DNA of 60,843 nucleotides from a bacterium (candidate division B38) B3_B38 (GTDB lineage: Bacteria; Acidobacteriota; B3-B38; Guanabaribacteriales; B3-B38): NCBI GenBank assembly GCA_005223145.1, contig NJBL01000003.1, positions 1 to 60,843 of the forward strand. Direction: 5' to 3'. The translations under genes and the position numbers were made by a program. The notes beneath the pieces are model-generated. The model had not been told where the DNA came from. It ran no database searches and saw only the letters and a list, made by a program, of their open reading frames with translations. How positions within the stretch are numbered: position 1 is the first letter of the stretch; each line of letters opens with the position of its first letter. Of the stretch, positions 24-59,195 are shown piece after piece.

Positions 24-641
24 TTAAAACCGATAGCTTAATCCTAATGTCAGTCTTCTAGTCATTAACTCATCTGGCGGATTATGAATTTTATATAATA
101 TCCTTAACGCCCAGTCCTCTTTTATATATAGCTTATAGCCGACACCAAAGCCAATTTGATAGTGAAGCTGCCCATAACCATATTTATACTGTTCCAGAGT
201 TTTAAGGTGAATATCAGTGGCTTGCATACGGTCATACATATAACCTGTGCCTATGGTGAAATATAATCCCTCAGCTCTCTTAAGCTCTGATAGTTTAAGA
301 TAGAACAAAAAATTGATATCCCAAAGGAGACGATACTTGTCTTGTGCCATACTAAATATTTCAGTCCAGTCCCAGGGCGCCTGCTTAATTTTATTGCGTG
401 GAATGTTTACAAATGCTATGTGCGGAAGATAGTTGATTTCAACATCAACACTTACACGGGGGCTAAGGAAATACTCCAGACCCAGCCCAACGAAGAGCAT
501 ATAAAAATGCTGTACTGTTCCTAAATAACCGGTTATCTCCAGCCTCTTATCATCCTCCTTCTCCTGGGCAGAAAGGTCAACCGCAAAGGAAGAGAGACAT
601 ATAGATACAGCTATTATGGTAATTAATATCCTATAGAACAT
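24..641 (-). CDS. Outer-membrane beta-barrel protein (OmpA/porin-like family)
   Basis: 205 aa. It has a signal-peptide-like N-terminus, alternating hydrophobic strands (GLGLEYF, IGFGVGYKLY) and a C-terminal Phe (LGLSYRF), typical of OM barrels. Confidence 0.75.
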   Translation of the reverse strand: MFYRILITIIAVSICLSSFAVDLSAQEKEDDKRLEITGYLGTVQHFYMLFVGLGLEYFLSPRVSVDVEINYLPHIAFVNIPRNKIKQAPWDWTEIFSMAQDKYRLLWDINFLFYLKLSELKRAEGLYFTIGTGYMYDRMQATDIHLKTLEQYKYGYGQLHYQIGFGVGYKLYIKEDWALRILYKIHNPPDELMTRRLTLGLSYRF

Positions 642-717
642 TTTTAAATATTATAACCAGTTTTTAACATTAAATCAATATATTTTCTGATATCTATTTT
701 ATCACCTCGGCAAAGGC

Positions 718-771
718 ATGATTCTTGGCTGCAGGCGAATCCGCCTAACATTCGGGTGGTCTGCAGATCAT
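718..771. repeat. Imperfect intergenic inverted repeat
   Basis: Nested complementary blocks ATGAT/ATCAT, CTGCAG/CTGCAG and CGAAT/ATTCG surround a 9-nt loop. Confidence 0.45.
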
Positions 772-890
772 TGTTTATAGAAAATCAGCATCCCGCAGAA
801 AAGCATCATAACATCACTGCTGGTATGAGACCGCTCACCAAGCTCAAAGGACAAACCTTATAAGGGACCTTAATCGGATAATAGCAAGTA

Positions 891-1826
891 TCACTTCTTC
901 ACCAGAGTAATATCCATATTGGTCAGCTTTTCTCCCGGCTTAAGAGCCAAAACTCCCAGAGAGCAGGGCTGGTAATCGGGATGGTGGACTTCTATGAGAA
1001 GCTTTTTGTCTGGATTGATATTTCTGATGAAGAAAACACCATCACCCCCGGTGGTCTTTCTCCCGCTGTGCCAGTCTATTCGCAGAGAAGATTTTATCTC
1101 ATCAATGTAGGTAAGCTTTATCTCAGCACCGGCTATTGGTATGTTGGATTCGTCCCTTACTACACCCTCTATTTCCACTGCCTGAGGAAGCGATATAAAG
1201 AGGTTTCCCACCAACTCGCCCATTTTCACATCAAGCTGCTGAACCTGGCACCCATATCCACTGGCTCTGATAATGACCTCTTTGGCTCCCTCATTCAGCT
1301 GCCGGGCTTCGAAGGACCCATCCTCATCGCTCACCACGGTCTTAATCTCTACACCGGAGTCAGTCCTCTCGGTAATGGTGATGTTGGCATCCTGGATGTG
1401 GATACCGCTCTGCTCGTCGGTTACCATTCCCCTGATGATAGCCTCAGGCTGGAGATGGAAATCCTTGGTAATCCTGTCTGATTTGGCAAATCTTACCACA
1501 CACCTTTTCACGGCATACCCTTCGGCTTTAATGGTGAGGATGACCACATCGTAGAGGGAAGTTATCTCAAAGGAGCCCGAGGAATCGGTAGATACGGGCA
1601 GGGTGACAAGCTCATCATCCTCAGCGGCACTGCCGGGCTCTATCTCTATTACCGCTTTTTCTATGGGAGCACCACTGCGGGCATCATATACCTTACCCGA
1701 AATGGTCCCTCTGCTTTGCCAGGAGGATGCGGATTCCCCTAATGACAATGCCAGGGGGATTAAAATCACCAGACTCCACAGCATTGCATAAGATAAATTT
1801 GAAGTGAAGATAGCTTTTCTTCGCAA
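891..1826 (-). CDS. Secreted protein with tandem carboxypeptidase-regulatory-like (Cna-B/transthyretin-like) domains
   Basis: 311 aa with a signal peptide and three repeats of the pattern I(S/R/E)GxVxD...PIxxAxI...xTxxDGxF. The TTG start has an AGGAGG RBS. Confidence 0.8.
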   Translation of the reverse strand: MRRKAIFTSNLSYAMLWSLVILIPLALSLGESASSWQSRGTISGKVYDARSGAPIEKAVIEIEPGSAAEDDELVTLPVSTDSSGSFEITSLYDVVILTIKAEGYAVKRCVVRFAKSDRITKDFHLQPEAIIRGMVTDEQSGIHIQDANITITERTDSGVEIKTVVSDEDGSFEARQLNEGAKEVIIRASGYGCQVQQLDVKMGELVGNLFISLPQAVEIEGVVRDESNIPIAGAEIKLTYIDEIKSSLRIDWHSGRKTTGGDGVFFIRNINPDKKLLIEVHHPDYQPCSLGVLALKPGEKLTNMDITLVKK

Positions 1827-1883
1827 TTTAACTCGCCTCCTTTTTTAACAAAACTTACCCCATCTTAATTTAAAATATTATTC

Positions 1884-2648
1884 TTATGGTATACCTTCTT
1901 CCCACTTGAGCTCTGCACCATATACTTTTAATCTGATTTTTGCGTCTAATATATGACCACTATCCCAGGCTGTTGGATTCTTCCATTCCGTGATCGCTGG
2001 ATTACAGCTACCATAGATGCAATCCAATATTATACTGCAGTCGGGGTAAGTCATTTTTTCTATATAATCATCTGTACCTGGCCAGTCTAGTTCCCAGGCC
2101 TCCATACGATTTCCACTTATGGTGAAGACCTCACCGTCAAGAGCCCTTCACCCATCATCCCATTCTTCTCGATCAATATCAATACCACGATGTCCACCTC
2201 CATATGTATTTATCCCCTTCGATGTCTTCTGTTGCCAGCACATACCCCAAGGATCCGCATCATAATTATAATATTCGTCGCATTCTGATGGGGGTCCATA
2301 TATATGATGTTTTACAGTGCAACTATTCCAATCCCAATGATGCCATGTACTATTCCAATGCCACCCCTGAAATTGATGATCATCCCATTTATCCTGTATA
2401 TTAGATCTTATACCCCAATTCCCAAAGGGCGCAGTATGACAAAGGGGCCCATCTGGCCATGGCCAACATTCATCTCCACATTCTGCTTCTAAATCATCTC
2501 CATAACAATATCTGTCTTGGTTCTCCATTGAAAAAGACACATCGCAGTAAGGTCGCATAAGCGCAGAGGATGAATTTTTATAGTAGAAAATGGATAGAAA
2601 AGCGATGGCCAACCCACCAATTACCATTGCTTTGGTTAAACTTTTCAT
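1884..2648 (-). CDS. Secreted Cys/Trp-rich protein with one in-frame TGA (candidate selenoprotein, 254 aa if read through)
   Basis: ORFs 2148..2648 and 1884..2105 share a frame. The only interruption is TGA at 2148-2150, and the 14 intervening codons (RALDGEVFTISGNR) are open. There is an AAGGAGG RBS before ATG 2648 and an N-terminal signal peptide. Confidence 0.75.
2116..2147 (-). promoter_or_regulatory. Candidate bacterial SECIS hairpin
   Basis: After the UGA comes AGGGCU then CUUG-AC-GGUGA-[GGUCU]-UCACC-A-UAAG. The apical loop begins 17 nt after the UGA and starts with G. Confidence 0.55.
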
Positions 2649-2749
2649 CTTAGCCTCCTTTCTTTAGAAATAACTATCCTTATTTATGTTATAAAATTTC
2701 TTATTTAATATATGCTACTGAAATATTGCTTTATTTTATACTTATATTG

Positions 2750-3124
2750 CTATTTGATATTATTTTGTTGTATTTTTCTATATTTTGAGGGAGCCACGCC
2801 TGCTATTTTTTTAAAGGTTCTATTAAAGTTTGAAATGTTAGTAAAACCTACTTCAAAGCAAATCTCCGTGATACTAAAAAACGTTTTCCGTAATAGCTCT
2901 TTCGCCTTCTCTATTCTTATATTATTAACATATTCCATGACAGTTTGACCAGTCAAGGTCTTGAATACTCTGCAAAAGTGATGTTTACTCAAACAGGCTC
3001 TTTTTGCAATTTCACCAAGATATAGCTTCCTTGTATAATTATTTTCAATATATTTATACACATCTTTCAGGAAGGAAGGCCAATATTTCCTATCTAGGTC
3101 TTTTATTAATCTATAAGCATTCAT
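2750..3124 (-). CDS. AraC-family transcriptional regulator (DNA-binding domain only)
   Basis: Motifs LGEIAKRACLSKHHFCRVFK and SITEICFEVGFTNISNFNRTFKKIAGVAPSKYR. It is 124 aa with no N-terminal sensor domain. Confidence 0.85.
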   Translation of the reverse strand: MNAYRLIKDLDRKYWPSFLKDVYKYIENNYTRKLYLGEIAKRACLSKHHFCRVFKTLTGQTVMEYVNNIRIEKAKELLRKTFFSITEICFEVGFTNISNFNRTFKKIAGVAPSKYRKIQQNNIK

Positions 3125-29562: not shown

Positions 29563-30573
29563 TTGCCCGATAAACCCTTGATAGGTATTACCATAGGAGA
29601 TCCAGCGGGGATAGGCGGTGAGGTGACCTTGAAGTGTGTGGCTCATCCGTCAGTGAGGGAGGTCTGCCATCCTATTGTCGTGGGTGATGCCAGGTTGCTG
29701 AGGCGCCTATCTGATGAATATCGTCTTCCTTTTCCCTTCCGTATCATTGAACAGAAAGAGAGAGTCGACCGCAAGCTGACAGCTCCCCTGTTAATGGATC
29801 TGGATAACCTACCCCCTCAGATAGAGATGGGCTCGGTCAAGAAGGAGTATGGGCGAGCAGCAGGACAATATCTGGAGGTGGCTGTATCCCGGGCACTAAA
29901 GGGGGAAATAGATGCCCTGGTAACGGGACCCATCAATAAGATTGCCTTTAAGTTGGGAGGGTACGATTACTCAGGGCATACGGAGTATCTGGCAACACTG
30001 ACCCGGAGCAACTCTTATGCCATGATGTTTGTAGCCGAGAGCCTCAAGGTTGCTTTTCTTACCACCCATTTGAGCCTATCAGAGGCGGTCTGCCAGGTAA
30101 AAAAAGAGAAGATTATTCCCTTGGTTAGGCTAACTAATCAGGAGATGAAGCGCTTCGGTTTCTCCCAGCCCAGGATAGCCATTGCAGGTCTTAATCCCCA
30201 TGCTGGTGAAAATGGTATGTTCGGCAGGGAGGAGGTAGAGGAGATCGTTCCCGCCGTTGAGGAGTGCCAGAGAGAAGGGATAGACATCAAGGGTCCCTAC
30301 CCTGCTGACGCCCTCTTCTCCTCTAATAAAAATGGAGAACTTTTTGATATTATCATAGCCCTTTACCACGACCAGGGCTTGGTCCCCGTAAAGCTGTATG
30401 ATTTCCAAAAAGCGGTAAATATTACCTTAGGTCTCCCCATAATCCGAACCTCGGTGGGACATGGAACCGCTTTTGACATTGCAGGAAAGGGGATAGCCGA
30501 CCCCAGCAATATGATTGCGGCTATTAAGTTGGCTGTTGCTATGACCAGGAACTCCCTTTCCACCAATAGTTGA
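29563..30573 (+). CDS. pdxA: 4-hydroxythreonine-4-phosphate dehydrogenase
   Basis: Motifs GDPAGIG, GHTEYL, GLNPHAGE, YHDQG and HGTAFDIAG. Confidence 0.93.
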   Translation: MPDKPLIGITIGDPAGIGGEVTLKCVAHPSVREVCHPIVVGDARLLRRLSDEYRLPFPFRIIEQKERVDRKLTAPLLMDLDNLPPQIEMGSVKKEYGRAAGQYLEVAVSRALKGEIDALVTGPINKIAFKLGGYDYSGHTEYLATLTRSNSYAMMFVAESLKVAFLTTHLSLSEAVCQVKKEKIIPLVRLTNQEMKRFGFSQPRIAIAGLNPHAGENGMFGREEVEEIVPAVEECQREGIDIKGPYPADALFSSNKNGELFDIIIALYHDQGLVPVKLYDFQKAVNITLGLPIIRTSVGHGTAFDIAGKGIADPSNMIAAIKLAVAMTRNSLSTNS

Positions 30574-30594
30574 TTCTGCAAAGAGTGATCTCCA

Positions 30595-31248
30595 ATGAAA
30601 TACTATGCCATCATTATTACCTTTGCCTTCTGCTGCTTCCTCTCACTATCTTTGGCTGAAGAGGTTGAGGAGGTAACTTCTCGACTTCAGGAGAAATACA
30701 ACACCCTGGAGAGCTTCTCCGCCACCTTCACCCAGACCCTCATTAACAAAGCTCTCAACCAGATTCGGGAGGAGGGGGGTGTTCTGTATATGAAGCGAGA
30801 CGGGATGATGAGGTGGGAATATCAGTATCCAGAGGAGAAGCTTTTTATATCGGATGGGATAACTGTTTACTGGTATCTGCCAGAGGAGAAGATGGTACAG
30901 ACAATGAAGTTAGCGGAGATGGAAGGGGAACAGACGCCGGTGTTGTTTTTAGCTGGCAAGGGGAATTTAAAAAGGGACTTTATTGTAGAGCCTTTACCTC
31001 CTGGCTCCACTGCTCCAGAGGGTAGTTACCAGTTGGTGCTTACCCCTCGAAGAGGAAGGGAGAGCTATCAGAAGCTGATCCTGGAAGTTGACATCCAAAG
31101 CTACCAGGTGAGAAAAATGGTTCTACTTGACCTTATTGGTAATATTAGCGAATACAGCTTCAGCAATATCAAAGAAAACTTGAAGCTCCCCAAAAGCTTT
31201 TTCCAATTCAAGGTTCCTAAGGGTGTGGAGGTTTCTCCTATAAGGTAG
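30595..31248 (+). CDS. lolA: Outer-membrane lipoprotein chaperone
   Basis: Signal peptide and the pattern FSATFTQ...MRWEYQYPEEKLFISDG. Confidence 0.85.
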   Translation: MKYYAIIITFAFCCFLSLSLAEEVEEVTSRLQEKYNTLESFSATFTQTLINKALNQIREEGGVLYMKRDGMMRWEYQYPEEKLFISDGITVYWYLPEEKMVQTMKLAEMEGEQTPVLFLAGKGNLKRDFIVEPLPPGSTAPEGSYQLVLTPRRGRESYQKLILEVDIQSYQVRKMVLLDLIGNISEYSFSNIKENLKLPKSFFQFKVPKGVEVSPIR

Positions 31249-32266: not shown

Positions 32267-33253
32267 GTGAGTAATCAGTTGGAGCCAAAGGCTATATTTC
32301 ATCTAATTAATGGCAAGCTTCTCCAGCTGGAGAGCGAGATTGAGAATAGACTCGATTCCCACATAGATATAATATCCAGGATTGGTGAGCATATATACCA
32401 GAGTAAAGGGAAGAGGATACGCCCTGCTTTGGTTCTGCTGAGTGCCCGTCTTGGTGGCTACCGGGGAGACAAGGACATTCTGTATGGGATGATTATGGAG
32501 TTTATCCACACCGCTTCCCTGATTCATGACGACATTGTTGATGGGGCTGCTATACGCAGGGGTATGCCCTCAATCAACTTTCGCTGGGGAAATGACCTTA
32601 CAGTTCTGCTGGGCGATTACATATACATTAATTCTATAGACATAGCCCTCCGACAGGATAATCTGAACATTCTAAGGCTTATCTCTTCGATCACCAAAAA
32701 TATGATAGAAGCAGAGCTTATCCAGACCACCAAAAGGGCTGATATAACTATCAGCGAGGAGGAATACACCGAGATTATCAAAGGTAAAACCGCCTATCTG
32801 TTTTCAGGCTGCAGCCAGATTGGGGGGATATTAGCCGATGTTTCCTCCCAACAGGAGCAGGCTCTGAGGGCTTATGGGCTGAATCTGGGCCTCGCTTTCC
32901 AGCTTATAGACGACCTGCTCGATTATTTTGCCACCGAAGAGGAATTGGGCAAGCCGGTAGGGACCGATCTTAAGGAGGGAAAGGTTACCCTACCCCTTAT
33001 ATATCTGCTCCAAAAAGCGGATAAAAGCTTACTAAAGATGATGAAGAAGGGCTTACAAGGGAAGGAGCCTTACCCCCTTTTCTGGAAGGATATTGTCCAA
33101 CTGATGCGGGACTATGGGATTGAAGCAGCTATCCAGCAAAAGGCGCTCCATTATGCCACAATAGCTAAGCATAGCCTGACCCCTTTTGACAAATCCCCGG
33201 CTCGGCAGGCAATGGAGGGGCTGGCTGATTTTGTTGTTTACAGGGATAGGTGA
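32267..33253 (+). CDS. Polyprenyl diphosphate synthase (IspB/HepT-like)
   Basis: Motifs GKRIRP, HTASLIHDDIVD...RRG, GKTA and FQLIDDLLD. Confidence 0.93.
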   Translation: MSNQLEPKAIFHLINGKLLQLESEIENRLDSHIDIISRIGEHIYQSKGKRIRPALVLLSARLGGYRGDKDILYGMIMEFIHTASLIHDDIVDGAAIRRGMPSINFRWGNDLTVLLGDYIYINSIDIALRQDNLNILRLISSITKNMIEAELIQTTKRADITISEEEYTEIIKGKTAYLFSGCSQIGGILADVSSQQEQALRAYGLNLGLAFQLIDDLLDYFATEEELGKPVGTDLKEGKVTLPLIYLLQKADKSLLKMMKKGLQGKEPYPLFWKDIVQLMRDYGIEAAIQQKALHYATIAKHSLTPFDKSPARQAMEGLADFVVYRDR

Positions 33254-33331
33254 ACCCCTCTAAGGTTCTTCTTCAAAGGTCATTCTAAGCAGTCATTTTC
33301 TCGGAAAGGCATTTTCCCTTCAAGAGCTTAC

Positions 33332-35335
33332 ATGAAAAGAAGAGCATTATATTCAATAAAAACCTTCCTCAAAATACTGGTAGTCTGCGGAATAGCCTTG
33401 ATTATAACCTGGGAAGCAAAGGAGTATTATGGCAGAAGGAGGTTCGAGCAACTGCTCCTCCAGCGCGAGCATTACGCCCGGTACACCACCCTTTTCTCCT
33501 GGGAGATGAACCACCAGGGAGATATACTTCCCGATACCAGCGACCTTGGGAATGTAACCTTTGAGAACGGGGTTCTTGCTTTCACCACCGGGAAAGACCC
33601 CTATTTTTATCTGAACCTGAAAAGGGAGAAGCTCGATCCGAAGCGATTCTATCTCTTATCACTCAGAATGTATTCCGAGCAACCTGGTGAGATGCAGATA
33701 TTCTTCTGGTGTGATACCCCAAATTCCGGCAAAGAAGGTGCCTTTTCTGCACCTCTGAAGGTAGCATCGGGATGGAAAGAGTATAGCATTGACCTGTGGA
33801 AGACCGATTTCTACCCTTTGCGCGAAGCCAATAGGCATAAGACCCAATGGGGGGGGACCGTTGGCTTTATCAAAACACTTCGCTTCGACCCCCCTGAAGG
33901 GAAGCCGGGCAACAGTGTGAGGATAGATTGGATAAAGTTCCACAAAGGGGTCACCCTCACTTATTCGATGCCATATTATCAGACCCTCGGGGTCATCCAG
34001 GGACTGGAATACCATCCACCCTCTCGCTCCCTCCGGATTATCCCCGGAGCAGAAAAGGGGGAGTTTATCTCCCATCCCATAGGGGTGGGCACAATTAGAG
34101 CCTTCTGGGACATCAGCTGGACGGGAGAAGAGGGTATATATGTGCAAACCAGAACTGGTCACACCCCCAATAGCGAGGATCCCTCCTGGTCCCCGTGGTC
34201 GCCACTTTCTGGCTCCTGGCGGAGTAGCTCAATTGGCAGTCCCCCTGATAAATATCTCCAGTACCAGGTAGGTTTGCGTCGGACAGAGCAGAAAGCAGCC
34301 CCCAGTCTGCAATGGGTAAGAATCAGGTATCTAGACCCATCCCCGCCGGGTGAGAACAGTTTGCTGTGGGGAACAAATCCCCTTCCTACGGTATCCAAGC
34401 CAGAAGAGGTCGAGGGGAGGATTGCGGGTCTGACCAATAGCCCTTGGGTGAGGGTACCTATGGAGGGGGATAGGGTATACGATACCGTCAATCGATTGGT
34501 CGCCGAAGATATCAATGTGATCGGCTCATGGGACCTGAGCTCTTCCAGCCGCAGCACAATACTGTCTGCCATCTGCCTTTACCAGCAGCAGGTCAAATGC
34601 TGGGAATTCTGCCAGGGGGAGCAGCAAACCCCCTCGGCGCTGGTGCAGCTGTTTCGTGATGTGAAGCGTATTGACTCCTTCTCCCTTATTATTCCTTCCC
34701 GCATTGACAGGGATTATTTCGCCCAGGTGGGATTGGATGCCATGGTCGATTTCGTGAGGGAGCGGCCCCCTTCGGAACTCAACCTTGATCGAGGACCGGG
34801 ATGGTATGTTGTCATGGCGCTGGTTTTTTTCCTCCTTATCATCGGTCTCCGCAGGGAGATAGGGTATAATTTTCACTTTGGCTTTCAGGAGCTCTCTTTA
34901 GCTGGTATTACTCTGGGTGTGCTATTAGGGTTGAGCCTACCATTGATGTATCTGTGGGGGCTGGGGTCCCTGAAATTCCCTACCTTGGTGGAGTTGACCG
35001 CCGCTCTTAATCGTTATCCGGCAAGTGCCATCATCCAGGAGTTTGGTAGAGCTCTGCTTATAGTAATCATCTACCGTCTGCTGGGGAAAGTGGTGAGTCC
35101 TGCGAGGTGGAGGTGGGTCATCACCCTGATAGCTACCAGTCTGATTTTCGCCCTTGGACACTTAGGATATCCCGGTCTATCACCCTCTGAAGTAAGGGGA
35201 TTTATAAGCTTGACCTTCATTGCTGGGCTTCTTTTCGGTTGGATTTATATTAAGAGCCAGAGCTTAACCGCTACTTTTTTAGTGCACTTGTTAGCCAATA
35301 TAACTCTATTCACCTGTACCACCTTCCAGGCTTGA
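33332..35335 (+). CDS. Large extracytoplasmic domain fused to CPBP (Abi/CAAX) intramembrane protease-like domain
   Basis: 667 aa. An N-terminal TM precedes a ~450-aa soluble region with Trp-rich sugar-binding-like motifs. The C-terminal TMs carry FALGH and HLLAN. Confidence 0.7.
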   Translation: MKRRALYSIKTFLKILVVCGIALIITWEAKEYYGRRRFEQLLLQREHYARYTTLFSWEMNHQGDILPDTSDLGNVTFENGVLAFTTGKDPYFYLNLKREKLDPKRFYLLSLRMYSEQPGEMQIFFWCDTPNSGKEGAFSAPLKVASGWKEYSIDLWKTDFYPLREANRHKTQWGGTVGFIKTLRFDPPEGKPGNSVRIDWIKFHKGVTLTYSMPYYQTLGVIQGLEYHPPSRSLRIIPGAEKGEFISHPIGVGTIRAFWDISWTGEEGIYVQTRTGHTPNSEDPSWSPWSPLSGSWRSSSIGSPPDKYLQYQVGLRRTEQKAAPSLQWVRIRYLDPSPPGENSLLWGTNPLPTVSKPEEVEGRIAGLTNSPWVRVPMEGDRVYDTVNRLVAEDINVIGSWDLSSSSRSTILSAICLYQQQVKCWEFCQGEQQTPSALVQLFRDVKRIDSFSLIIPSRIDRDYFAQVGLDAMVDFVRERPPSELNLDRGPGWYVVMALVFFLLIIGLRREIGYNFHFGFQELSLAGITLGVLLGLSLPLMYLWGLGSLKFPTLVELTAALNRYPASAIIQEFGRALLIVIIYRLLGKVVSPARWRWVITLIATSLIFALGHLGYPGLSPSEVRGFISLTFIAGLLFGWIYIKSQSLTATFLVHLLANITLFTCTTFQA

Positions 35336-35348
35336 AAGGGGGCAGAAA

Positions 35349-36158
35349 GTGGAAGACTTCGCTCAGAAAACCTGGCAGAATATTGAAACCCTGCGGAAGA
35401 AGAGACCCTTGATCCACCACATCACTAATATGGTGGTGATGAACACCACCGCCAATGCTACGCTGGCTATTGGGGCCTCGCCGGTAATGGCTCATAGCCC
35501 CGATGAAGTGGAGGAGATGGTGAGCTTTGCCGGGGCTCTGGTGCTCAATATCGGGACTCTCACCCGGGACTTAGTCCAGTCGATGATAAAAGCGGGGCAG
35601 AGGGCAAATCAGCTATCTATCCCGGTGATATTCGACCCCGTGGGTGCGGGAGCCACCTCCCTGCGCACTTCCGAGGCACTGAGGATATTAGAGAAGGTCA
35701 AGATGCAAGTTATTCGAGGCAACCCGGCTGAAATCCTCTCCCTGGGAGGGGAGAAAGGGCATATTAAGGGGGTGGAGTCCTTCCAGGAGACAATAGAGGC
35801 GGTGGAGGCAGCTACTTTATTAGCGGCAAAATTGGGGACGACTTTAGCGGTAACCGGTAAGGAGGACTTTGTTACCAATGGGAACCGCTCGGTCTGGGTC
35901 TCCAATGGGCACCCTCTTATGAAGCAGGTTACCGGCACAGGCTGCATTGCCACCACTGTGGTGGCAGCTTTCACCACCGTCGACCCCGACCCGTTATCCG
36001 CCGCGGCTACTGCCCTGGGGTACTTCGGTTTAGCAGGGGAGAAGAGTGCACAGAGAAGCGGCTCCCCAGGGAGCTTTCAGGTTGCCCTCTTCGATGCCCT
36101 CTATGACCTTGCAGAAGAGGAGGTCAGAAAGGGCATAAGGATCAGGGAGCATCAGTAA
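35349..36158 (+). CDS. thiM: Hydroxyethylthiazole kinase
   Basis: Motifs PLIHHITNMVV, NIGTL, DPVGAG and TGTGC. Confidence 0.95.
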   Translation: MEDFAQKTWQNIETLRKKRPLIHHITNMVVMNTTANATLAIGASPVMAHSPDEVEEMVSFAGALVLNIGTLTRDLVQSMIKAGQRANQLSIPVIFDPVGAGATSLRTSEALRILEKVKMQVIRGNPAEILSLGGEKGHIKGVESFQETIEAVEAATLLAAKLGTTLAVTGKEDFVTNGNRSVWVSNGHPLMKQVTGTGCIATTVVAAFTTVDPDPLSAAATALGYFGLAGEKSAQRSGSPGSFQVALFDALYDLAEEEVRKGIRIREHQ

Positions 36159-57532: not shown

Positions 57533-59032
57533 ATGAAAGTTTCCATCCCTTCCCAGGTGACCGATTTTCTAATTATTGGGTCTGGCATTGCTGGTCTGCG
57601 AGCCGCTATTGAGCTGGCACCCTACGGAGAAGTCTGTCTCCTGTGCAAGGATGAGCCTTCCGAAAGCAACACCGAATACGCCCAGGGGGGGATTGCCGTA
57701 GCCCTGAGCGACGAGGACGAGGTCCGCCTCCATTATCAGGACACCATGGCCGCTGGCGATGGGCTGTGCAATCCTGAAGCGGTGGAAATTTTGGTAGAGG
57801 AAGGACCTCATTACATAATAGAGCTGATTGACTGGGGAACTGAATTTGACAGAGAGGGGACCAAACTGGATTTCACCAGAGAGGGGGCGCACAGCAAGAA
57901 CCGCATCCTCCACGCCCACGGCGATTCTACCGGCAAGGAGATAGTTCGCGCCCTGCTAAAAAAGGCGAAGTCCTACCCATCAATCCATTTTTATCCCCAG
58001 TGCTATACTAAGGAGCTCCTGGTCGAAGATGACCGCTGTCTGGGGGTTATTTATCTCAATGAAGATGAGAAAAGCTTTCATTCCCTCTATGCCTCGGCTA
58101 CCCTTCTGGCTACCGGTGGGGCTGGGAGGGTATATTCCCAGACCACCAATCCCCCCTTTGCCACCGGCGATGGGATGGCTATCGCCTTTCGTGGCGGGAC
58201 GACCATGATGGATATGGAGTTCGTCCAGTTTCATCCCACCTCCCTCTTTCTGCCCCATAGCCCGAGATTTCTTCTCTCCGAATCTCTGCGAGGGGAAGGG
58301 GCGTATCTCAAAAACATACATGGCAAGAGATTTATGGAAAACTATCATCCCTTAGCGGAGTTAGCCCCGCGGGATGTGGTCAGCCGGGCGATAATCTCCG
58401 AGACAAAAAAGACCAACGCCAGCTGGGTCTATCTTGACTTAACCCATCTCAAACCCTCCTTTGTTCGCAACCGTTTCCCTAAGATTTTTAATACCTGCCT
58501 CACTTACAGCCTCGACCTCACCAAAGACATGATCCCCGTTCATCCAGCAGCGCATTATATGATGGGCGGTGTCAAAACCGACCTCTGGGGGAGGACTACC
58601 TTAAGGGGTCTCTATGCGGCGGGCGAGATTGCCTGCACTGGAGTCCACGGAGCTAATCGATTAGCCAGCAACTCCCTGCTGGAGGGCTTGGTCTATGGTG
58701 CCCGCAGTGGTAAGGCTATGGCTTCCGACAAGAACCCCCGCCCTTCTATCCCGCCAAGATATATTCTGGAAGAGGAGCAGGGCTCACTGAAGAGGAAAGA
58801 TTTTGAGCAAATCCGCCGGGAAATAAACCAGATGATGTGGGGCAAAGTGGGAATCATGAGAGATAAAGTGGGGATGGAGGAGGCCATTGAATATTTGAAA
58901 AAATATGGCTACTTCTCCCAATACCACCCTCTGGACAGGTATGAGATGGAGACCATAAACATCTACCTGGTAGGGTTGCTAATAGCGTTCTCAGCCCTCC
59001 GCCGTGAGGAGAGCCGCGGGGCTCACTACTGA
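57533..59032 (+). CDS. nadB: L-aspartate oxidase (ends at a TGA; conserved tail continues in frame to 59107)
   Basis: Motifs GSGIAGL, AQGGIA, EGAHS, QFHPT, PAAHYMMGG, GANRLASNSLLEG and ESRGAH. Confidence 0.92.
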   Translation: MKVSIPSQVTDFLIIGSGIAGLRAAIELAPYGEVCLLCKDEPSESNTEYAQGGIAVALSDEDEVRLHYQDTMAAGDGLCNPEAVEILVEEGPHYIIELIDWGTEFDREGTKLDFTREGAHSKNRILHAHGDSTGKEIVRALLKKAKSYPSIHFYPQCYTKELLVEDDRCLGVIYLNEDEKSFHSLYASATLLATGGAGRVYSQTTNPPFATGDGMAIAFRGGTTMMDMEFVQFHPTSLFLPHSPRFLLSESLRGEGAYLKNIHGKRFMENYHPLAELAPRDVVSRAIISETKKTNASWVYLDLTHLKPSFVRNRFPKIFNTCLTYSLDLTKDMIPVHPAAHYMMGGVKTDLWGRTTLRGLYAAGEIACTGVHGANRLASNSLLEGLVYGARSGKAMASDKNPRPSIPPRYILEEEQGSLKRKDFEQIRREINQMMWGKVGIMRDKVGMEEAIEYLKKYGYFSQYHPLDRYEMETINIYLVGLLIAFSALRREESRGAHY

Positions 59033-59195
59033 AAGGATTTCCCTCAACCCGATGATAAAAAATGGAAGCTACATTCTACCATCCATAAAGGGAGAATAGA
59101 ATTTTAATCCTTATAGCATATGTGTTTTTTTGAAGTCAATCCCTCAGTGGTAGTTGAATTGAGTTACTTTTTTATCTAAAAACTACTATTAGGTT

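What the first reader, a model, noticed from the sequence alone, without database searches (positions are those of the whole stretch)
2116..2150. SECIS-like hairpin at canonical distance downstream of the UGA
Seen (minus strand): UGA, 6 nt, then CUUG-AC-GGUGA-[GGUCU]-UCACC-A-UAAG. This is a perfect 5-bp upper stem starting 12 nt after the UGA, a 5-nt loop beginning with G 17 nt after the UGA, and a 4-bp lower stem. Established: the E. coli fdhF SECIS has its SelB-binding upper hairpin about 11 nt after the UGA, and general bacterial SECIS models need a G at the start of the apical loop. Inference: this is a functional SECIS, independent evidence for recoding. The nadB UGA in this window has no such hairpin and acts as an internal control.
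Basis: partly seen in the sequence, partly recalled or inferred. Interest (0 to 1): 0.72.

Follow-up and report, generated by a model that had tools for sequence, protein, structure and literature searches.

The report
Selenocysteine insertion hairpin, new exported selenoprotein
The small RNA hairpin just after an apparent stop codon is very probably a genuine bacterial selenocysteine-insertion signal, and it marks the only selenium-using branch of an uncharacterised family of exported proteins found across Acidobacteriota.

Summary
The hairpin is in the sequence exactly as described: minus strand, UGA at 2150-2148, a 12-nt spacer, then GGUGA[GGUCU]UCACC at 2135-2121.

Alone it is weak evidence. 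About 0.2-4% of all TGAs in the window have a similar hairpin, and synonymous-codon resampling of this one sequence is unremarkable. Comparison with relatives makes the case:
- All eight distinct close relatives, from Aminicenantes-type sediment metagenomes, keep the in-frame TGA and about 85 conserved in-frame codons after it.
- Seven of the eight pair 5/5 in the same register. Three stem pairs show compensatory changes, some through amino-acid changes.
- 149 more distant homologue loci have Cys at the UGA position, an invariant column. None of 128 distinct Cys sequences has the hairpin.
- The loop GGUC(U) and its spacing match the E. coli fdhF SECIS to within 1 nt.
- An AlphaFold model (pLDDT 92) makes one domain across the UGA.
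- TGA is otherwise a normal stop in the window.

Verdict: a functional, canonical bSECIS (about 0.85) in a selenoprotein family absent from Pfam, NCBIfam and the 2026 catalogue.

The protein's function is unknown.

The parts
1884..2648 (-). Complete selenoprotein gene. ATG at 2648, in-frame UGA (codon 167), TAA at 1886-1884. It encodes a 254-aa exported Cys/Trp-rich beta-sandwich protein.
   Evidence: Searches give the frame. Searches show the part after the UGA is as conserved as the part before it in 7 homologues, with no conserved internal start codon. AlphaFold2 model, pLDDT 92.1, pTM 0.84, one domain spanning the UGA.
2654..2660 (-). Shine-Dalgarno sequence AAGGAGG, 5 nt upstream of the ATG.
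   Evidence: Read directly.
2148..2150 (-). UGA read as selenocysteine (U167).
   Evidence: TGA is kept at this position in 8 distinct homologues. Cys (TGC/TGT) sits there in 149 loci. The column is invariant in a 103-sequence alignment. The base is unchanged in independent DNA and RNA contigs.
2136..2147 (-). 12-nt spacer between the UGA and the upper stem. Its last two bases, AC (2137-2136), extend the stem in relatives by pairing with G/A-U at 2120-2119.
   Evidence: A-U in 8/8 sequences; C-G in 6/8, with a C.A mismatch in the window; a metatranscriptome variant has U at 2136, which restores a U-A pair.
2131..2135 (-). 5' arm of the SECIS upper stem, GGUGA.
2126..2130 (-). Apical loop GGUCU, the putative SelB contact (G22, U23 counting from the U of UGA).
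   Evidence: The loop reads xGU[CU][UC] in 7/8 homologues. The E. coli fdhF loop is GGUC, 1 nt further from the UGA.
2121..2125 (-). 3' arm of the SECIS upper stem, UCACC.
2116..2119 (-). Its partner is CUUG at 2141-2138. The register is uncertain.
   Evidence: pairing is kept but varies on one side only. RNAalifold prefers a different lower stem, alignment columns 18-20 with 46-48.
2145..2152 (-). 5' arm (GGUGAAGG, including the UGA) of a competing helix that uses the same 3' arm (2128-2121). It is the MFE structure of the free RNA in the window.
   Evidence: -18.4 kcal/mol; only 81.8% of cells paired across homologues, and 86 of 500 shuffles do as well, so it is not supported as conserved.
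891..1826 (-). Downstream partner gene encoding an exported protein with three CarboxypepD_reg domains. It follows the family gene in both Sec and Cys loci.
   Evidence: for the window. for Sec relatives; seven of eight Cys loci tested have it.
2750..3124 (-). Upstream AraC-type HTH regulator gene, conserved next to the Sec forms.

Best explanation
The hairpin at 2137-2119 (core 2135-2121, minus strand) is a canonical bacterial SECIS element.

Proposed mechanism:
1. The ribosome places UGA167 (2150-2148) in its A site and has unwound the mRNA up to about 11-12 nt downstream.
2. The stem GGUGA/UCACC, with its GGUCU loop, then stands at the mRNA entrance.
3. SelB.GTP.Sec-tRNA(Sec) binds the loop through G22/U23 and delivers selenocysteine.
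4. Translation continues through the hairpin, read as G-E-V-F-T, for 87 more codons.

The product is a 254-aa exported beta-sandwich protein with Sec at a position that is an invariant Cys in the rest of the family.

Shown here: the in-frame UGA, conservation of the downstream frame, the Sec/Cys pair, hairpin covariation confined to the UGA-bearing members, and one predicted fold across the UGA.

Inferred: SelB binding, Sec insertion, and export.
For: - Anatomy is as described. A strong RBS precedes the gene and the 254-codon frame is open.
- All 8 distinct close homologues keep TGA at the same codon and a conserved in-frame C-terminal part, with no conserved internal start.
- Stem statistics: 92.9% of cells paired, 3 pairs with compensatory change, 1 of 500 shuffles as good, and slid registers give 16-55% paired.
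- The compensating changes are partly non-synonymous: E/F (GAG/UUC), K/L (AAG/CUU), I/Y (AUA/UAU).
- Codon choice favours pairing in each lineage. P(5/5 pairs given the protein sequence) is 0.02-0.25.
- 149 loci in Acidobacteriota and a few other phyla have Cys at the UGA position, in a D-x-G-G-C motif. The column is invariant in 103 sequences.
- None of 128 distinct Cys sequences has the hairpin. Mean z is +0.07, against -2.28 for the TGA group.
- The Sec forms are one clade, SH-aLRT 99.
- The fdhF SECIS letters were verified: UGA, 11 nt, GGUUGCA-GGUC-UGCACC. The window's AGGUCU.CACC is the same apical motif, 1 nt closer to the UGA.
- The element meets the published bSECIS constraints on loop, stem, loop G and 16-37 nt spacing (PMC13188914).
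- TGA is an ordinary stop in the window. It ends 6 of 12 confident genes, including pdxA and ispB.
- The AlphaFold2 model has pLDDT 92.1 and pTM 0.84, with pLDDT 95-99 after the UGA.
- A 641-nt metatranscriptome contig spans 1938-2575 with the TGA intact. It carries a C-to-U change at 2136 that repairs the window's C.A mismatch.
Against: - Support for Sec use in this genome and phylum comes only from unchecked earlier notes.
- The window's own hairpin is weak: -6.3 kcal/mol, above the -7.5 threshold of the bSECIS model.
- The hairpin is out-competed in the free RNA by a helix that includes the UGA.
- Single-sequence codon resampling is unremarkable.
- One homologue (L007) does not form the stem in this register. 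It has 3/5 pairs, and only a shifted hairpin fits the model.
- The 8 sequences are one clade, so there are only about 3-4 independent compensatory events.
- No Rfam model exists for comparison.
Confidence: 0.85

Rival explanations
1. The UGA is read as Sec, but this hairpin is mainly a by-product of the conserved peptide G-x-V-x-T. The real SelB target would be another structure, such as the shifted hairpin (loop C-R-U-R-A, about 26 nt from the UGA) or a longer helix.
For: Three of the five pairs follow from the amino acids alone, and single-sequence resampling is unremarkable. L007 forms only the shifted 9-bp hairpin. The shifted helix is 86% pair-compatible across homologues.
Against: The shifted helix shows no covariation: 283-361 of 500 shuffles do as well. 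[quoted passage not shown] The first hairpin has compensatory changes achieved through amino-acid changes and consistent codon choice. Cys homologues with the same L-[DN]-G-x-x-x-T peptide spacing lack it.
Confidence: 0.06
2. SelB-independent programmed read-through. A near-cognate tRNA (Trp, Cys or Arg) reads the UGA, and the hairpin 12 nt downstream acts as a general read-through stimulator or pause site.
For: Sec machinery was not verified in this genome. One homologue (L002) has a second in-frame TGA at an invariant Trp position, which hints at UGA leakiness in that organism. The window's nadB also carries an in-frame TGA.
Against: The UGA sits at an invariant Cys column, the classic Sec/Cys signature. 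The loop GGUC(U) and its spacing match the SelB-binding fdhF element. The nadB and L002 extra TGAs have no hairpin. Earlier notes report a Sec-MvhD in this genome and selABD plus selC in other Aminicenantes (unchecked).
Confidence: 0.05
3. The UGA is a true stop. The gene is split or decaying, the 166-aa product is the protein, and the hairpin has no recoding role.
For: Gene callers annotate 140-167-aa products in all relatives. In soil metagenomes, L155 and L164 carry a TAA near this position.
Against: Eight lineages keep about 85 in-frame, equally conserved codons after the TGA, with no conserved start codon or RBS. The predicted fold needs both halves. Genome-wide recoding is also excluded, because TGA ends ordinary genes.
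Confidence: 0.03

Closest known systems
E. coli fdhF SECIS (the SelB-binding minimal hairpin of formate dehydrogenase H mRNA)
   Same: It lies inside the coding region immediately after the UGA. It has a short upper stem ending ...CACC and the apical loop GGUC with G and U in the same loop positions. The loop starts 17 nt after the UGA here and 18 nt in fdhF.
   Different: There is no bulged U in the upper stem. The stem is 5 bp (7 bp in relatives), against 6 bp plus a bulge. The spacer to the stem base is 12 nt, or 10 nt to the extended stem, against 11 nt. The host gene is an exported protein of unknown function, not a molybdoenzyme.
Consensus bSECIS model of Zhang and Gladyshev (bSECISearch), as summarised in PMC13188914
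   Same: The loop is 3-9 nt, the upper stem is at least 4 bp, G is the first loop base and is followed by G/U, and the spacing is 16-37 nt. All are met.
   Different: The window's isolated hairpin energy (-6.3 to -6.5 kcal/mol) is above the model's -7.5 cut-off. Relatives with the C-G or U-A extension reach -8.5 to -11.8.
Catalogued prokaryotic selenoprotein families (119 families and subfamilies in PMC13188914, Table 1)
   Same: A single Sec replaces a conserved Cys, Cys homologues greatly outnumber Sec forms, and the SECIS is in the ORF.
   Different: The protein and its Cys homologues match no Pfam-A or NCBIfam model. Nearly all catalogued families are defined by such models. The fold is a beta-sandwich with no significant PDB neighbour, not thioredoxin-like. 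The Sec context is D-D-G-U-x-x-L-D-G, not UxxC or CxxU.

Membership tests
Bacterial SECIS (bSECIS consensus model) | Stem-loop inside the ORF, directly downstream of an in-frame UGA | tested here: met
   UGA at 2150-2148, hairpin at 2135-2121, same reading frame continuing to 1884.
Bacterial SECIS (bSECIS consensus model) | Apical loop of 3-9 nt and upper stem of 4-16 bp | tested here: met
   Loop GGUCU (5 nt) and a 5-bp stem, 7 bp in six relatives. Criterion taken from PMC13188914.
Bacterial SECIS (bSECIS consensus model) | G in one of the first two loop positions, usually followed by G or U | tested here: met
   The window loop is G-G-U-C-U. Seven of 8 homologues have xGU in the loop. L007 meets this only in a shifted hairpin.
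Bacterial SECIS (bSECIS consensus model) | 16-37 nt between the UGA and the apical loop | tested here: met
   17 nt (12-nt spacer plus 5-nt arm). The value is identical in all 8 homologues, with no indels.
Bacterial SECIS (bSECIS consensus model) | MFE of -7.5 kcal/mol or lower | tested here: inconclusive
   The window hairpin alone is -6.3 to -6.5 kcal/mol. With the first 17 nt held single-stranded the fold is -8.5. Relatives reach -8.5 to -11.8.
Bacterial SECIS (bSECIS consensus model) | Structure conserved with covariation in orthologous UGA genes and absent from Cys orthologues | tested here: met
   92.9-94.4% of cells paired, 3 compensatory pairs, 0-1 of 500 shuffles as good; 0 of 128 Cys sequences have the hairpin.
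Bacterial SECIS (bSECIS consensus model) | Host genome encodes SelA, SelB, SelD and tRNA-Sec | not testable with these tools
The window has no tRNA genes. Only unchecked earlier notes are available: a Sec-MvhD in this genome, and selABD plus selC in other Aminicenantes.
Bacterial SECIS (bSECIS consensus model) | Binds SelB and directs Sec insertion | not testable with these tools
   Needs EMSA, a reporter assay or 75Se labelling.
E. coli fdhF-type SelB-binding hairpin | GGUC apical loop at a fixed distance (spacer about 11 nt) from the UGA | tested here: met
   GGUC(U) loop. The loop G/U lie 1 nt closer to the UGA than in fdhF.
E. coli fdhF-type SelB-binding hairpin | Bulged U in the upper stem (U17) | tested here: not met
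   No bulge in the window or in any homologue. The element works like the fdhF element but is not a copy of it.
Selenoprotein (Sec/Cys-pair criterion) | In-frame UGA aligned with a conserved Cys in homologues, with sequence conservation on both sides | tested here: met
   149 Cys loci and an invariant column; the downstream part is conserved.
Any catalogued selenoprotein family | Match to the family's Pfam or NCBIfam model | tested here: not met
   No Pfam-A or NCBIfam hits for the Sec protein or for five or six Cys homologues. The exception is an unrelated C-terminal TIGR03437 domain in one long form.

The most novel reading that the evidence does not exclude
The hairpin marks the single Sec-using branch of an uncatalogued family of exported beta-sandwich proteins. 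The family has about 445 clusters at 50% identity, lies mostly in Acidobacteriota, and has no Pfam or NCBIfam model and no PDB fold neighbour.

In this reading, the invariant Cys/Sec167 together with the invariant E56, C57, H71, N77, W78 and Q140 forms a new extracytoplasmic redox or catalytic centre. That centre would work with the always-adjacent CarboxypepD_reg partner protein. This would be a new class of selenoenzyme outside the thioredoxin fold.

A smaller side reading concerns the UGA-containing helix and the SECIS stem, which share one 3' arm. Ribosome arrival at the UGA would then switch the RNA into its SelB-binding form.
Probability: 0.35. Interest if true: 0.75.

Novelty: new member of a known kind. 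Interest (0 to 1): 0.55.

Why it matters
Gene callers cut this gene at the UGA in every public assembly I found, giving 140-167-aa "hypothetical proteins". One record read the codon as Trp. Recognising the SECIS restores a 254-aa protein and adds a selenoprotein family that the 2026 catalogue of 119 families does not list.

The use of Sec points to Cys167 of the roughly 445-cluster Cys family as a functional residue, probably redox or catalytic. This gives a first handle on a widespread exported Acidobacteriota protein of unknown function and on its conserved CarboxypepD_reg partner.

The SECIS itself is ordinary, which is useful. Its fdhF-like GGUC loop means read-through could plausibly be tested in standard laboratory E. 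coli.

Tried and rejected
- **Rfam.** No match at gathering threshold over the whole window, and none at E up to 10 over 2060-2200. No Rfam family matched, so this is uninformative.
- **Protein families and fold.** Pfam, NCBIfam and PDB sequence search gave no family for the protein. Foldseek against PDB gave only weak C2-like beta-sandwich hits, best E 2.5e-3 and TM 0.27 or lower, so it gives no functional lead.
- **Genome-wide recoding of TGA as Trp or Gly.** Rejected. pdxA and ispB, and 6 of 12 confident genes, end in TGA. The long "read-through ORFs" at 29563-31248 and 32267-35428 are simply adjacent genes.
- **Independent translation of the 73-codon ORF (2105-1884).** Rejected. Its ATG is not conserved: L002 has TTA and L007 has ATT. 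Conservation also runs through the 14 codons between the TGA and that ATG.
- **The MFE helix containing the UGA.** Present in the window but not supported across homologues.
- **A shifted second hairpin.** No covariation.
- **Single-sequence codon shuffle.** Not significant. Replaced by per-lineage and Cys-versus-TGA comparisons.
- **Other TGA-truncated lineages.** The top 150 hits of the 1.84-billion-protein search contained none. Short hits there were contig-truncated Cys forms.
- **Sec machinery and the window's own record.** A literature search for Aminicenantes plus selenocysteine found nothing relevant.

Full report
**1. Observation**

On the minus strand the sequence reads ...GAU GAU GGG UGA AGG GCU CUU GAC GGU GAG GUC UUC ACC AUA AGU GG....
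- UGA at 2150-2148
- a 12-nt spacer
- GGUGA at 2135-2131
- loop GGUCU at 2130-2126
- UCACC at 2125-2121
- the outer CUUG (2141-2138) / UAAG (2119-2116) pairing

The UGA ends a 166-codon ORF that starts at ATG 2648 behind an AAGGAGG Shine-Dalgarno sequence. The same frame stays open for 87 more codons, to TAA at 1886-1884.

**2. Strength of the hairpin on its own**

It is not strong.
- The free 56-nt RNA prefers another helix (-18.4 kcal/mol, z -2.9). In it GGUGAAGG, which includes the UGA, pairs with the same 3' arm.
- Of the 2045 TGA trinucleotides in the window, 4.2% are followed by a loosely similar hairpin and 0.24% by a strictly similar one.
- Resampling synonymous codons for the peptide R-A-L-D-G-E-V-F-T-I-S-G-N-R-M places the MFE at the 53rd percentile and the fixed-hairpin energy at the 7th. 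G-E-V-F-T fixes three of the five pairs.

One sequence alone therefore proves little.

**3. Close relatives**

A protein search found only seven clusters. All are metagenomic, and one is named Candidatus Aminicenantes. All were called as 140-167-aa products, or read through with TGA as Trp.

I fetched their contigs and later scanned the genome and metagenome collections. Together these gave 19 loci with 8 distinct sequences.
- All have TGA at the same codon.
- All are followed by about 85 in-frame codons that are as conserved as the N-terminal part.
- The ATG of the window's 73-codon ORF is not conserved. L002 has TTA and L007 has ATT.

**4. Hairpin in the relatives**

There are no indels in the 66 nt around the UGA. 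The stem reads:
- GGUGA/UCACC in the window, L001 and L013
- GGCGA/UCGUC in L002 and L003
- GGUAA/UUACC in L006
- GGUAU/AUACC in L010

This gives compensatory changes at three of the five pairs. Some are achieved by amino-acid changes: E/F, K/L and I/Y.

| Structure tested | Cells paired | Shuffles (of 500) reaching the observed % of cells paired |
|---|---|---|
| Stem with A-C/G-U extension | 92.9% | 1 |
| UGA-containing MFE helix | 81.8% | 86 |
| Shifted second hairpin | 86.1% | 283 |

- With the partner slid by 1-3 columns, the extended stem drops to 16-55% paired.
- The shifted second hairpin shows no covariation.
- RNAalifold independently returns the extended stem.
- L007 is the exception. 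It has 3/5 pairs in this register and a well-formed shifted hairpin instead.
- Given each lineage's protein sequence, the chance of 5/5 pairs under random synonymous codons is 0.02-0.25. Over five lineages this is about 2e-6 jointly.

**5. Sec/Cys pair**

The wider scans recovered a family spread over Acidobacteriota (Bryobacterales, Vicinamibacterales, Terriglobia), with a few Nitrospira, Binatia and other MAGs.
- At the position of the UGA, 149 loci have TGC or TGT, within a D-x-G-G-C-x-D motif. Two loci have TAA.
- In a 103-sequence alignment the column is one of 13 invariant columns: E56, C57, H71, G76, N77, W78, G79, F93, G95, W107, C110, Q140 and C/U167.
- The Sec forms make one clade, SH-aLRT 99, needing one change of state.

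**6. Specificity of the hairpin**

None of 128 distinct Cys sequences has 5/5 pairs in the register, against 7 of 8 TGA sequences. A stem of at least 6 bp anywhere 9-16 nt downstream occurs in 8.6% of Cys sequences and 87.5% of TGA sequences. Mean fold z is +0.07 against -2.28, although the Cys group is more GC-rich. The 12 Cys homologues with the same C-x-x-L-[DN]-G spacing have 1-4 pairs.

**7. Comparison with known SECIS elements**

I confirmed the E. coli fdhF letters by a 100% match in 5,413 genomes: UGA, then CACGGCCCAUC (11 nt), then GGUUGCA-GGUC-UGCACC. The window has AGGUCU.CACC in common with it. The loop G/U are 1 nt closer to the UGA, and there is no bulged U.

The published bSECIS constraints are a loop of 3-9 nt, a stem of 4-16 bp, G in the first two loop positions followed by G/U, 16-37 nt spacing, and MFE of -7.5 or lower (PMC13188914). 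All are met except the energy in the window itself. Relatives reach -8.5 to -11.8 kcal/mol.

The window's weakness is a C.A mismatch between 2136 and 2120. L001-type strains have C-G there. A metatranscriptome variant has U-A.

**8. Other readings of the UGA**

- TGA ends pdxA, ispB and 6 of 12 confident genes in the window. The code is therefore standard.
- The AlphaFold2 model built on the 103-sequence alignment has pLDDT 92.1 and pTM 0.84. It is one beta-sandwich whose most confident part (95-99) lies after the UGA. U167 sits at the end of a short helix spanning residues 160-170. A 166-aa product would be a partial domain.
- A 641-nt metatranscriptome contig covers 1938-2575 with the TGA unchanged, so both halves lie on one RNA.

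**9. The protein**

It has no Pfam or NCBIfam model, no PDB sequence relative and no significant fold neighbour. The family has 445 clusters at 50% identity.

A gene for a roughly 310-aa protein with CarboxypepD_reg domains follows the family gene in the window, in the Sec relatives, and in 7 of 8 Cys loci tested. All 119 catalogued prokaryotic selenoprotein families carry a domain model identifier. This protein matches none of those in Pfam or NCBIfam. Its function is unknown. I infer a redox or catalytic role for C/U167 from its invariance and from the use of Sec.

**10. Limits**

I therefore could not look for selA, selB, selC or selD, or compare SECIS elements within this genome.
- The window has no tRNA gene.
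- Earlier notes of this scan report a Sec-MvhD with a SECIS on another piece of this genome, and selA-selD-selB plus tRNA-Sec in other Aminicenantes genomes. I did not check them and count them only as leads.
- The eight TGA sequences are one clade, so independent compensatory events number about three or four.

**11. Verdict**

This is a canonical bacterial SECIS (confidence about 0.85) in a previously uncatalogued, exported selenoprotein family. The element is a new member of a known kind. The interest lies in the protein it reveals.

Noticed in passing
window 59030-59032 (+), within nadB 57533-59107: nadB has an in-frame TGA inside its conserved C-terminal motif...ESRGAHY-[TGA]-KDFPQPDDKKWKLHS. 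From my own knowledge of NadB/SdhA, the residue there is normally Arg, so CGA to TGA would be one transition. Twenty-five conserved-looking codons follow. There is no downstream hairpin (z +0.20). This is not a Cys position, so it is a nonsense mutation, an assembly error or a tolerated truncation rather than Sec.
   Followed up: partly
L002 398-400 (NCBI GCA_975967795.1, 1169-bp contig): This Sec-form homologue carries a second in-frame TGA at a Trp position that is invariant in the family (W107). No SECIS-like hairpin follows it. The record's protein is translated with TGA as Trp. Possible causes are a sequencing error, a pseudogene, or UGA leakiness in that organism. It remains unexplained.
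   Followed up: partly
L155 814-816 and L164 2129-2131 (soil metagenome contigs): A family member with TAA, not TGA, a few residues from the conserved Cys position. In-frame family sequence follows it (YAFDGSIWGSS...). It may be a split gene or a pseudogene.
   Followed up: no
window 24-3124 (-) and loci L001, L003, L006, L008, L010, L017, L034, L044, L053, L063, L073: A conserved cassette: the family gene is followed by a roughly 310-aa exported protein with two or three CarboxypepD_reg domains. In the Sec lineage it is preceded by a solo AraC-type HTH gene and followed by an OMP beta-barrel gene. Long Bryobacterales forms fuse the domain to the TIGR03437 Soli_cterm domain.
   Followed up: partly
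window 1938-2575, run X6 (sediment metatranscriptome) and X3: A close strain variant of the gene, about 93% identical, is assembled at high word depth (about 440) in a metatranscriptome. This suggests strong expression in situ. The variant carries small in-frame indels in the Trp-rich middle part, at 2243-2305, 2348 and 2440.
   Followed up: no
L013 and L014 (MAG JAOUOQ01, Candidatus Aminicenantes bacterium 8_1_Oct_SF_Bin20): One MAG carries two Sec-form paralogues on different contigs. Each has its own TGA and hairpin: GGUGA-GGUUC-UCACC in one, and the L007-type in the other.
   Followed up: no
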